In this document: one piece after another, positions 3,578 through 3,807 of the stretch
Layout of the letters: each line of letters starts with the position of its first letter
Numbering within the stretch: the first letter of the stretch is position 1
DNA from: a virus
Taxonomy: Duplodnaviria; Heunggongvirae; Uroviricota; Caudoviricetes
DNA: 19,189 nt
Reading direction: 5' to 3' (one strand)
Virus record (IMG/VR): IMGVR_UViG_2872180393_000006
Coordinates: 1-19,189 of that record
The notes under the pieces: model-generated
Seen by the model: only the letters and a program-made list of their open reading frames with translations
What the model was told of the DNA's origin: nothing
Databases searched by the model: none
Program-made: the position numbers and the translations under genes

Positions 3578-3599
3578 CCCCGTTACTTTATTCGTACCC

Positions 3600-3800
3600 C
3601 TTATAATGGGGTGTTAGCCAGCCAGACCCGGCATGATTACTGCCCCAGTCGTCCATGATCCGGGGGGTGATGTCACCGGGTCTGGTGGGGCGCTGGTAAC
3701 CGCTAATAGGGGTCAGGTCAGGCACTTTTGCCGGGACCGTCTGTAACGTGGATGCCGGTACCTGCTCCCCGTGGTTATCTGGTTAACCCATATACAAGGG
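3600..3800 (+). ncRNA. Predicted IS110-family bridge RNA (seekRNA) region in the left-end non-coding sequence
   Basis: Position upstream of the recombinase matches where IS110-group elements encode their guide RNA. The region has a perfect TATAAT at 3602..3607 and hairpins (e.g. GACCCGG 3626..3632 pairing with CCGGGTC 3676..3682). No covariance model was run. Confidence 0.35.
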
Positions 3801-3807
3801 AGACAGA

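What the first reader, a model, noticed from the sequence alone, without database searches (positions are those of the whole stretch)
3578..3807. Candidate bridge RNA (seekRNA) in the 230-bp left end of an IS110-family element
IS110-group elements have been shown to encode a structured guide RNA in the non-coding end beside the recombinase gene, which base-pairs with both target and donor DNA. This element has the matching architecture: a 230-bp non-coding left end before the DEDD transposase and only ~30 bp after it. The left end contains a perfect TATAAT at 3602..3607 and several hairpins. If real, its two loops would specify this element's target site, and no named IS was recognised here.
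Basis: partly seen in the sequence, partly recalled or inferred. Interest (0 to 1): 0.65.

Follow-up and report, generated by a model that had tools for sequence, protein, structure and literature searches.

The report
ISEc20 bridge RNA gene, already catalogued
The 230-bp left end belongs to the known insertion sequence ISEc20 and does encode a conserved two-loop guide ("bridge") RNA of the kind described for IS110 elements in 2024, here aimed at runs of C, so the finding is real but not new.

Summary
Window 3578-3807 is the non-coding left end (LE) of an IS110-family element, followed by a DEDD/Ser recombinase gene and a 30-bp right end (RE). The element is not unnamed. It is ISEc20 (about 99.5% identical to ISSfl4) and occurs in 1463 of 5426 complete E. 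coli genomes.

Relatives with 73-82% identical recombinases in Burkholderiales and Microbacteriaceae keep the same LE. Across 53 of them the LE folds into a 5' stem-loop plus two stem-loops with internal loops, with strong compensatory covariation. A covariance model built only from the non-enteric relatives hits window 3616-3771 at 138.5 bits (E about 8e-27).

- **Loop 1** carries ACUGCCCC(C) and GGGGGG-UG. These match the poly-C insertion sites; the empty site of this copy is GGTA-C8-GCTG.
- **Loop 2** carries UAAUAGGGG, identical to RE 5017-5025. A G/A change there covaries with the RE and arose twice. It also carries GUAACGUGG, complementary to the LE start.

Durrant et al. 2024 already list "Detected Bridge RNA End: LE" for the ISSfl4/ISEc20 cluster.

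This copy is defective: a 2-nt frameshift in the recombinase gene and one C missing from the left target guide. A second copy sits at 9251-10706 (- strand). The TATAAT lies in the loop of the 5' stem-loop and is probably not the main promoter.

The parts
3578..3581 (+). C-run at the left junction: the left part of the target's poly-C tract plus the inferred CC core
   Evidence: All insertion sites read flank-C(2-8)-GTTAC. The empty site has C8.
3582..3586 (+). Right donor arm (RD), GTTAC. This is the first IS-specific bases of the LE and is invariant in the family.
   Evidence: Alignment A2. Complementary to GUAAC at 3743-3747.
3584..3589 (+). TACTTT, inferred -10 of a promoter that forms only in the circular RE-LE junction
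   Evidence: With a CC junction, TTGACA (5008-5013) lies 18 nt upstream. Both motifs are conserved in relatives. Inference only, no expression data.
3596..3612 (+). 5' stem-loop (ACCCC-UUAUAAU-GGGGU).
   Evidence: Helix 1: 3 of 5 pairs change on both sides. The loop sequence is not conserved.
3621..3637 (+). 5' arm of stem P1 (GCCAGACCCGG, then UGAU)
   Evidence: Pairs with 3672-3686. 6 of 15 pairs show compensatory changes and 98.7% of cells are paired.
3639..3646 (+). Left target guide (LTG), ACUGCCCC. Other ISEc20 copies examined, including copy 2 of this window, have ACUGCCCCC, so this copy lacks one C.
   Evidence: Identical to the top strand of the rtcB insertion site ACTGCCCC. Its last variable base covaries with the base left of the C-run (Fisher p = 0.0023). 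Its C-run length covaries with the C count at the left junction (p = 1.6e-4). The deletion is shown.
3647..3661 (+). Short distal hairpin or spacer of loop 1 (AGUCGUCCAUGAUCC)
   Evidence: Nearly invariant and without covariation. Its role is unknown.
3662..3669 (+). Right target guide GGGGGG (pairs with core CC plus CCCC), then UG, a handshake-guide candidate complementary to the last two donor bases CA
   Evidence: The right junction is most often CA-CCCCCC. The rule is taken from IS621.
3672..3686 (+). 3' arm of stem P1
3688..3702 (+). 5' arm of stem P2 (GGGCGC, GGU, CCG)
   Evidence: Pairs with 3756-3769. 8 of 12 pairs show compensatory changes.
3704..3712 (+). Left donor guide (LDG), UAAUAGGGG
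   Evidence: 9-nt identity with RE 5017-5025 (p = 0.0065 against shuffles). In all 11 A-type elements with a readable RE, the change AUAGGGG to AUAGGGA is matched in the RE; it occurs in two separate lineages.
3713..3739 (+). Distal hairpin of loop 2
   Evidence: Variable sequence with compensatory changes (columns 189-195 with 206-213).
3743..3751 (+). Right donor guide GUAAC-G(U), then GG. The GG is a handshake-guide candidate for the target's CC.
   Evidence: Reverse complement of CC.CGTTAC at the LE start. Invariant in 53 sequences.
3756..3769 (+). 3' arm of stem P2, the end of the structured RNA (about 174 nt from 3596)
   Evidence: The covariance-model hit spans 3616-3771.
3770..3807 (+). 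Leader of the recombinase gene with Shine-Dalgarno GGGAGA (3798-3803)
   Evidence: Not conserved outside the enteric copies.
3808..5002 (+). ISEc20 recombinase gene, frameshifted by a 2-nt deletion at about 4235 (the intact product is 398 aa)
5008..5013 (+). TTGACA, inferred -35 of the junction promoter
   Evidence: TTGAC[AG] is conserved at a near-constant distance (14-15 nt) from the RE end in all relatives.
5017..5027 (+). Left donor arm (LD), TAATAGGGGCA, the last IS-specific bases
5028..5032 (+). C-run at the right junction (core CC plus the right part of the target tract). Five C here, six in most copies.
9251..10706 (-). Second ISEc20 copy, with its bridge RNA at 10512-10668. It has the same 2-nt frameshift but its LTG has five C.
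   Evidence: Covariance-model hit of 148.3 bits. Identical to copy 1 except for one C. Inverted repeats I1 and I6.

Best explanation
Window 3578-5032 is a copy of ISEc20, an IS110-group insertion sequence. Its left end encodes a bridge RNA of about 175 nt (roughly 3596-3769, + strand).

**Loop 1, target-binding.** Its 5' side is ACUGCCCCC, which equals the top strand of the left target plus a CC core. Its 3' side is GGGGGG, which pairs with the core plus four more C. The element therefore inserts into runs of about 7-10 C, leaving CA-CCCCCC at its right junction. The UG that follows can pair with the donor's terminal CA after strand exchange.

**Loop 2, donor-binding.** Its 5' side is UAAUAGGGG, which equals the right-end sequence just inside the terminus. 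Its 3' side is GUAACGUGG, which pairs with GTTAC at the left end, with one core C, and with the target's CC after exchange.

**Expression (inferred).** The RNA is probably transcribed from a promoter rebuilt when the element circularises: TTGACA in the RE, 18 nt, TACTTT in the LE.

**What is shown and what is inferred.** Shown here: the identity of the element, the conserved structure, the sequence matches and their covariation, and the poly-C targets. Inferred from IS621: base pairing with DNA, the handshake roles, the promoter, and the binding of the RNA by the recombinase.

**State of this copy.** It cannot move by itself. The recombinase gene is frameshifted and the left target guide lacks one C.
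For: **Identity of the element.**
- 99.4-99.8% identical to annotated ISEc20 and ISSfl4 copies.
- Pfam PF01548 and PF02371.
- PDB hits to IS621 transposase (8wt6, E = 1.2e-14) and ISCro4 transposase.

**Structure.**
- RNAalifold predicts 49 pairs, 18 with compensatory changes.
- 95.6% of cells are paired. 158 cells are changed on both sides, against 48 +/- 6 in shuffles and at most 41 with slid partners.
- A model built from 51 non-enteric relatives hits 3616-3771 at 138.5 bits, E about 8e-27.

**Target.**
- Every one of about 70 distinct insertion sites is a C-run.
- Empty sites read GGTA-C8-GCTG for this copy and ACTG-CCCCGCCC-TCGAG for rtcB.
- The right junction has six C as its mode.
- The last variable LTG base against the base left of the C-run: 43 of 70 matches against 34.7 expected, p = 0.002; Fisher test p = 0.0023.
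- Elements with C6 in the guide have 6.3 C at the left junction against 4.6, p = 1.6e-4.

**Donor.**
- 9-nt identity between LE and RE, p = 0.0065; jointly with the RDG match, p about 0.001.
- The LDG G/A change is matched in the RE in all 11 A-type elements with a readable RE. It lies in two lineages whose nearest relatives are G-type.

**Rules used for comparison.** Durrant 2024 and Hiraizumi 2024.

**Prior detection.** Durrant Supplementary Table 5.
Against: - There are no expression or binding data.
- Rfam 15 gives no hit in 3450-5150. I could not tell whether it contains a bridge-RNA family.
- The variable guide bases match natural flanks only weakly. This site has GGTA against ACUG. Positions 2 and 4 are not significant, and the sites are not phylogenetically independent.
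- The LDG match stops one base before the core, and the RDG has a U opposite the first core C. In IS621 all four guides include the core.
- The crossover position inside a homopolymer cannot be read directly. The inference of a CC junction rests on counting C in occupied and empty sites, and those tracts are themselves unstable (C4, C7 and C20 at one locus).
- The LE/RE direct repeat and its covariation would also fit a protein-binding DNA repeat.
Confidence: 0.85

Rival explanations
1. The LE is a structured 5' leader, or a set of DNA sites for the recombinase, and not a guide RNA. TAATAGGGG in the LE and RE would be subterminal direct repeats bound by the protein. GTAACG/CGTTAC would be an inverted repeat. 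The stems would control translation of the recombinase.
For: Direct and inverted repeats with the ends exist. The G/A co-change in the LE and RE would also be expected for two copies of one protein-binding site. The last 40 nt of the LE hold the ribosome-binding site.
Against: - The covarying helices enclose exactly these segments and place them on the two sides of internal loops, as in IS621 bridge RNA.
- Loop 1 matches the target, which a donor-site model does not explain. It also covaries with the target.
- The recombinase is homologous to enzymes shown to need such an RNA (PMC11208160; PMC11187229).
Confidence: 0.05
2. The RNA is made mainly from an internal LE promoter that uses the TATAAT at 3602-3607. 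It would start near 3614 and lack the 5' stem-loop. The junction promoter would be irrelevant.
For: - TATAAT is perfect.
- Burkholderiales relatives have GATAAT and others TACAAT at the same loop position.
- A start near 3614 would sit just before stem P1.
- IS621 bridge RNA is weakly expressed from integrated copies (abstract of PMC13626964).
Against: - The promoter scan finds no -35/-10 pair in 3400-5200, and no -35 lies upstream.
- The stem around the TATAAT covaries, which suggests it is transcribed.
- Duganella (GAGCCUC) and the actinobacterial relatives have no -10-like loop.
- TTGAC[AG] in the RE and TACT[AT]T in the LE are conserved and come 18-19 nt apart in the circle.
- The IS621 RNA also starts with a 5' stem-loop and comes from a junction promoter.
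Confidence: 0.2
3. The feature is only a dead relic. This copy makes no functional RNA or protein, and the two copies in the window merely mark old insertions.
For: Both copies carry the same 2-nt frameshift. Copy 1 also lacks one C in the guide and one C at the RE junction. The frameshift variant is absent from 5426 E. coli genomes and 72,556 plasmids.
Against: Apart from these indels, copy 1 is identical to an intact Shigella plasmid copy, L008. Two identical frameshifted copies at different sites suggest the defective element was still moved, or converted, after the mutation arose. That would need its RNA and ends to work with a recombinase supplied in trans. Assembly or polishing error in repeats is an alternative.
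Confidence: 0.35

Closest known systems
IS621 bridge RNA with IS621 recombinase (Durrant et al. 2024, PMC11208160; Hiraizumi et al. 2024, PMC11208158)
   Same: - The RNA is encoded in the LE upstream of a DEDD/Ser recombinase.
- It is about 175 nt, with a 5' stem-loop and then two stem-loops with internal loops.
[quoted passage not shown]
- The first loop reads the target and the second reads the donor.
- The two bases after each 3' guide fit the non-cognate DNA, like handshake guides.
- The -35 lies in the RE and the -10 in the LE.
   Different: - The recombinase is 398 aa against about 326 aa. Only the C-terminal domain aligns confidently (E = 1.2e-14).
- The core is inferred as CC within a homopolymer, against CT.
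- The target is a C-run with only weak flank preference, against a specific 14-nt REP site.
- The LDG stops one base short of the core, and the RDG has a U.C mismatch at the core.
- Both loops are nearly invariant across phyla, whereas the IS621-type target loop is variable.
ISEc21 seekRNA (Siddiquee et al. 2024, PMC11187229)
   Same: An IS110-type element with an upstream non-coding region. Its RNA holds short matches to both strands of the target and is needed for circle formation and insertion. Insertion produces no target duplication.
   Different: ISEc21 belongs to a different IS110 subgroup (recombinases of 345-385 aa). It targets a conserved codon stretch of IS3-family transposase genes. 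A short RNA of 58-74 nt is sufficient for it.
ISEc20 / ISSfl4 as catalogued (ISfinder names used by NCBI PGAP; Durrant 2024 Supplementary Tables 1 and 5)
   Same: The same element at 99.4-99.8% identity. Supplementary Table 5 lists ISSfl4 (cluster ISEc20;ISSfl4) with 'Detected Bridge RNA End: LE' and group IS110. Supplementary Table 1 clusters it with IS110, ISAar2, ISBma3 and others.
   Different: I found no published account of its guides, its poly-C target or its structure. Full-text searches for ISEc20, for ISSfl4, and for IS110 + bridge RNA + homopolymer gave nothing on this. This copy is frameshifted.

Membership tests
IS110-family bridge RNA (seekRNA) | Encoded in the long non-coding end next to a DEDD (RuvC-like) plus Ser (PF02371) recombinase gene; the LE for the IS110 group | tested here: met
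   The LE is 230 bp and the RE 30 bp. PF01548 at 1.8e-40 and PF02371 at 2.4e-22. Homology to the IS621 and ISCro4 transposases.
IS110-family bridge RNA (seekRNA) | [quoted passage not shown] | tested here: met
   53 relatives, 95.6% of cells paired. 158 doubly changed cells against 48 +/- 6 in shuffles and at most 41 in slid controls.
IS110-family bridge RNA (seekRNA) | Target loop: the 5' side equals the left target plus core (top strand); the 3' side complements the core plus right target | tested here: met
   ACUGCCCCC and GGGGGG against C-run targets. Guide/target covariation p = 0.002 and p = 1.6e-4. Positions further out are weak or not significant.
IS110-family bridge RNA (seekRNA) | Donor loop: the 5' side equals the RE end plus core; the 3' side complements the core plus the LE start | tested here: inconclusive
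   UAAUAGGGG equals RE 5017-5025, and the G/A change covaries and arose twice. GUAACG complements CGTTAC. However, the LDG does not reach the core and the RDG has a U opposite a core C.
IS110-family bridge RNA (seekRNA) | The same short core in donor and target, with no target duplication | tested here: inconclusive
   C counts in occupied against empty sites fit a CC junction. The homopolymer hides the exact crossover, and the tracts vary.
IS110-family bridge RNA (seekRNA) | Handshake dinucleotides that pair with the non-cognate DNA after strand exchange | tested here: met
   By sequence only. UG after the RTG against the donor's CA. GG after the RDG against the target's CC. Both are invariant, so there is no covariation test.
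IS110-family bridge RNA (seekRNA) | A promoter rebuilt across the RE-LE junction of the circular form | tested here: inconclusive
   TTGACA, 18 nt, TACTTT if the junction is CC. The motifs are conserved. No transcript data.
IS110-family bridge RNA (seekRNA) | The RNA is expressed, bound by the recombinase and required for recombination | not testable with these tools
   Needs RNA-seq, binding assays and transposition assays.
IS110-family bridge RNA (seekRNA) | Detected by a bridge-RNA covariance model | tested here: met
   My own model from non-enteric relatives scores 138.5 bits. Durrant's models had already detected one in the LE of this cluster. Rfam 15 gives no hit.
ISEc20 (IS110 family, IS110 group) | Near-identity over the full length to the named element | tested here: met
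   99.4-99.8% over 1455-1458 bp to copies annotated as ISEc20 or ISSfl4.

The most novel reading that the evidence does not exclude
The ISEc20/IS110-proper subgroup may use a bridge RNA whose two loops are almost frozen across Proteobacteria and Actinobacteria. It would be aimed at a homopolymeric C tract, so the pairing register can slip. That would give variable C counts at both junctions and low flank specificity. Its donor loop would not pair with the core.

This would be a natural low-specificity, homopolymer-seeking variant of bridge recombination. The presence here of two identical frameshifted copies would also suggest that it can mobilise non-autonomous copies in trans.
Probability: 0.45. 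Interest if true: 0.4.

Novelty: already known. Interest (0 to 1): 0.27.

Why it matters
The result confirms that a very common E. coli and Shigella insertion sequence (about a quarter of complete E. coli genomes) carries a bridge RNA. It also gives a concrete reading of that RNA's guides:
- poly-C tracts as targets;
- a CC core;
- TAATAGGGGCA / GTTAC as the donor arms.

That reading explains why ISEc20 sits in C-runs inside genes. Here it sits in a prophage tail-fibre gene, and elsewhere in rtcB, an alpha-2-macroglobulin gene and IS21 istA. It also gives testable guide-reprogramming predictions for a 398-aa recombinase distant from IS621.

It opens no new question. The class was described in 2024, and this element was already flagged as having a bridge RNA in its LE.

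Tried and rejected
- **Rfam 15.** Scans at gathering and at E <= 10 thresholds gave only chance-level hits in the element.
- **Single-sequence MFE fold.** It pairs CCCC with GGGG and pairs the LDG with the RDG. These pairs never covary, so I treat the segments as guides and not helices.
- **First guess for the left donor guide.** I took AGGCACUUUU (3719-3728) to be the guide, pairing with GGCACCCCC through U:G wobbles. I rejected this because the stretch is the covarying distal hairpin (GGCA/UGCC becomes GACA/UGUC in L015 and L019) and is not conserved in relatives.
- **First assumption about the circle junction.** I assumed it holds 4-6 C. I rejected this from the empty sites (C8 against 4+5 or 4+6 C) and from junctions with only 2-4 C.
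- **The 65-nt solo LE fragments.** They end exactly before the guide's C-run (H78-H84), and I suspected self-targeting. In L020 the break abuts an IS3-family end, so I set the idea aside.
- **Extension of the right guide.** I tested whether it reads the right flank beyond the C-run (CC to GG). There is no enrichment (counted by eye).
- **Close variants L015 and L019** (87% identity). They are decayed or truncated and told me little.
- **The ST131/ATCC 25922 empty site.** It has an extra ACA and a hypervariable tract, so it could not be used to count the core.
- **Literature.** Searches for ISEc20, for ISSfl4, and for IS110 + bridge RNA + homopolymer found no description of these guides.

Full report
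**1. What is at the coordinates**

Window 3578-5032 is a 1455-bp element.
- All other copies begin to match at 3578 (CCCCGTTACTTT...) and stop at 5032 (...AATAGGGGCACCCCC).
- The start codon is at 3808, which gives a 230-bp left end (LE). The stop codon ends at 5002, which gives a 30-bp right end (RE).
- The two ORFs, 3808-4242 and 4244-5002, carry PF01548 (DEDD_Tnp_IS110, 1.8e-40) and PF02371 (2.4e-22).
- TATAAT is at 3602-3607.
- The LE folds better than shuffles: z = -2.8, with 0 of 200 shuffles as good.

**2. Identity of the element**

- It is 99.4-99.8% identical to copies annotated "IS110-like element ISEc20 family transposase". Shigella flexneri plasmid copies are annotated ISSfl4.
- It is found in 1463 of 5426 complete E. 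coli genomes and in 254 plasmids.
- The intact recombinase has 398 aa.
- Compared with an intact Shigella plasmid copy (L008), the window copy differs only by indels. One C is missing after 3642, two nt are missing at about 4235 (which frameshifts the recombinase gene), and one C is missing at the right junction.

The claim that no named IS is present is therefore wrong.

**3. Insertion sites**

I read about 20 different ISEc20 sites and about 50 sites of relatives. Every one has the form flank-C(2-8)-GTTAC...GGG[G/A]CA-C(3-18)-flank.

The right junction most often has six C. The flanks are otherwise diverse.

Empty sites:
- This copy sits in a prophage tail-fibre gene whose intact form reads GTGTGGCGGTA-CCCCCCCC-GCTGAGACC.
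- The rtcB site reads ACTG-CCCCGCCC-TCGAG.

The occupied sites have 4+5 and 4+6 C against 8 positions in the empty tract. Some junctions have only 2-4 C. The simplest reading is that the circular donor junction is ...TAATAGGGGCA-CC-GTTAC..., with CC as the shared core. This is an inference. The crossover inside a homopolymer cannot be seen directly, and the tracts are unstable: C4, C7 and C20 occur at one locus.

**4. Relatives**

A scan of one genome per species returned 80 loci. They include recombinases 73-82% identical in:
- Burkholderiales (Paraburkholderia, Burkholderia, Trinickia, Duganella, Pandoraea, Cupriavidus);
- Microbacteriaceae and related actinobacteria (Microbacterium, Pseudoclavibacter, Cryobacterium and others).

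They share the same termini: CCCCGTTACT at the left and GCTTGAC[AG]AA..CATAGGG[GA]CACCCCCC at the right. They also share a conserved LE (alignment A2, 53 sequences).

**5. Structure**

RNAalifold predicts 49 pairs, of which 18 show compensatory changes.

Counting on a structure that also includes the 5' hairpin gave these results:

| Measure | Value |
|---|---|
| Cells paired | 95.6% |
| Cells changed on both sides | 158 |
| Same, in shuffles | 48 +/- 6 |
| Same, with 3' partners slid by 1-3 columns | at most 41 |

The covarying helices, in window coordinates, are:
- the 5' stem-loop, 3596-3612;
- P1, 3621-3637 with 3672-3686;
- P2, 3688-3702 with 3756-3769;
- the distal hairpin within 3713-3739.

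The segments that RNAalifold pairs inside the loops (CCCCC with GGGGG, and the AUAGGGG side with the GUAACG side) never show a compensatory change. That is expected if they are single-stranded guides.

The architecture matches what is described for the IS621 RNA: a 5' stem-loop and then two stem-loops with internal loops.

**6. Covariance-model test**

- Rfam 15 has no hit in the element.
- I built a model from 51 relatives and excluded all enteric sequences (A3, R1).
- It hits window 3616-3771 (+) at 138.5 bits, E about 8e-27.
- It also hits 10512-10668 (-) at 148.3 bits.

The second hit revealed a second ISEc20 copy at 9251-10706 on the - strand. It is identical to the first, including the frameshift, except that it has the normal five C in loop 1.

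**7. Loop 1 and the target**

Under the IS621 rules, the 5' side of a loop equals the top strand of the left arm plus the core. The 3' side complements the core plus the right arm.
- Loop 1 has ACUGCCCCC on its 5' side (3639-3646; one C short in this copy). It has GGGGGG followed by UG on its 3' side (3662-3669).
- This predicts a target ACTG-CCC-CC-CCCC and a right junction CA-CC-CCCC, which is the modal junction observed.
- The rtcB site starts with ACTGCCCC.

Covariation across 70 distinct sites:
- The last variable guide base matches the base left of the C-run in 43 sites against 34.7 expected (p = 0.002). For G against T the Fisher test gives p = 0.0023.
- Elements whose guide has six C have more C at the left junction (6.3 against 4.6, p = 1.6e-4).
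- Positions further out are weak (p = 0.03 at position 3) or not significant (positions 2 and 4).
- At this window's site the flank GGTA matches ACUG at only one position.

Recognition therefore seems to rest mainly on the C-run.

The UG after the G-run is complementary to the donor's terminal CA. This is the position and logic of the IS621 handshake guide.

**8. Loop 2 and the donor**

- The 5' side UAAUAGGGG (3704-3712) is identical to RE 5017-5025. Against dinucleotide shuffles, p = 0.0065.
- In relatives the shared stretch is AUAGGG[G/A]C.
- All 11 elements with A in the loop and a readable RE also have A in the RE. The G-type elements keep G in the RE, with two apparent exceptions: L030, whose RE has lost bases, and L056, whose guide has a U.
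- The A-type occurs in Duganella, whose nearest relatives are G-type Burkholderia elements, and in Pseudoclavibacter and Herbiconiux, whose nearest relatives are G-type Cryobacterium elements. The paired change therefore happened at least twice.
- The 3' side GUAACGUGG (3743-3751) is the reverse complement of CC.CGTTAC at the LE start. It is invariant.

Differences from IS621:
- The left donor guide stops one base before the core.
- The right donor guide has a U opposite the first core C.
- The final GG would pair with the target's CC after exchange.

**9. Expression (inferred only)**

- With a CC junction, the RE's TTGACA (5008-5013) lies 18 nt upstream of TACTTT (3584-3589). Both motifs are conserved in relatives, as TTGAC[AG] and TACT[AT]T.
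- A start about 7 nt downstream would fall at about 3596, the first base of the 5' stem-loop. The RNA would be about 174 nt, against 177 nt for IS621.
No -35 precedes it, and the scan finds no promoter. Duganella and the actinobacterial relatives have no -10-like loop. Burkholderiales have GATAAT there, so a weak internal promoter is not excluded.

**10. Comparison with what is known**

- The recombinase aligns with the IS621 transposase (8wt6, E = 1.2e-14) and the ISCro4 transposase. The SGSS serine motif is conserved.
- Durrant et al. 2024, Supplementary Table 5, lists ISSfl4 (cluster ISEc20;ISSfl4) with "Detected Bridge RNA End: LE". Supplementary Table 1 clusters it with IS110 itself.
- Siddiquee et al. 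2024 note the upstream non-coding region in IS110-type elements and tested ISEc21.
- I found no paper that describes the guides or the poly-C target of ISEc20.

The existence of a bridge RNA here is already on record. What this analysis adds is a guide-level reading.

**11. Verdict**

The finding is a real feature and was correctly interpreted in its main point, but it is already known. The particular copy is non-autonomous. Interest is low to moderate.

The most novel reading not excluded is that this subgroup is a homopolymer-seeking, register-slipping variant whose donor loop does not pair with the core.

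Noticed in passing
window 9251-10706 (- strand): A second ISEc20 copy in inverted orientation, identical to the first and carrying the same 2-nt recombinase frameshift. That variant was not found in 5426 E. coli genomes or 72,556 plasmids. Possible explanations are that a defective copy was mobilised in trans, that the copies were homogenised by gene conversion, or that the repeat was mis-polished in assembly.
   Followed up: partly
window 7832-9096, 11541-12806, 16730-17993: Three copies of a second IS of about 1.27 kb (an IS3-family orfA-like ORF lies at 8729-9031), in direct and inverted arrangement. 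The window is very IS-dense, as in Shigella-like genomes.
   Followed up: no
window 15341-15417 and 15442-15529 (+): Rfam hits to isrK (64.8 bits) and C4 antisense RNA (79 bits). This pair is typical of P1/P7-like or related prophage immunity regions.
   Followed up: no
window 2343-3577 and 5033-5190 (- strand): ISEc20 copy 1 splits a prophage tail-fibre gene (466 aa in the intact allele; Gp34_trimer domain) at a run of eight G in the coding strand. The apparent 400-aa ORF 2343-3545 is only its C-terminal part.
   Followed up: yes
L103-L105 (E. coli chromosomes, the site occupied by ISEc20 in ATCC 25922 and ST131): The unoccupied site carries a hypervariable C tract (C4, C7, C20) preceded by ACA, which the occupied allele lacks. 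This may be tract slippage or a footprint of insertion and excision cycles.
   Followed up: partly
L020 601-665, and hits H78-H84: Many E. coli genomes carry only the first 65 nt of the ISEc20 LE, ending exactly before the guide's C-run, in or next to a phage Rz gene. In L020 the fragment abuts an IS3-family element.
   Followed up: partly
L021-L100: ISEc20-like elements with 73-82% identical recombinases, identical termini and nearly identical guide loops occur in both Betaproteobacteria and Actinobacteria. This implies transfer between phyla without retargeting.
   Followed up: partly
L030 and L034 (Paraburkholderia, Trinickia): These copies have CCGCC instead of CCCCC in the left target guide, and L030 also has GGAGGG in the right target guide. 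Their junctions still show plain C-runs, so they are either decaying copies or variants whose target I did not identify.
   Followed up: no
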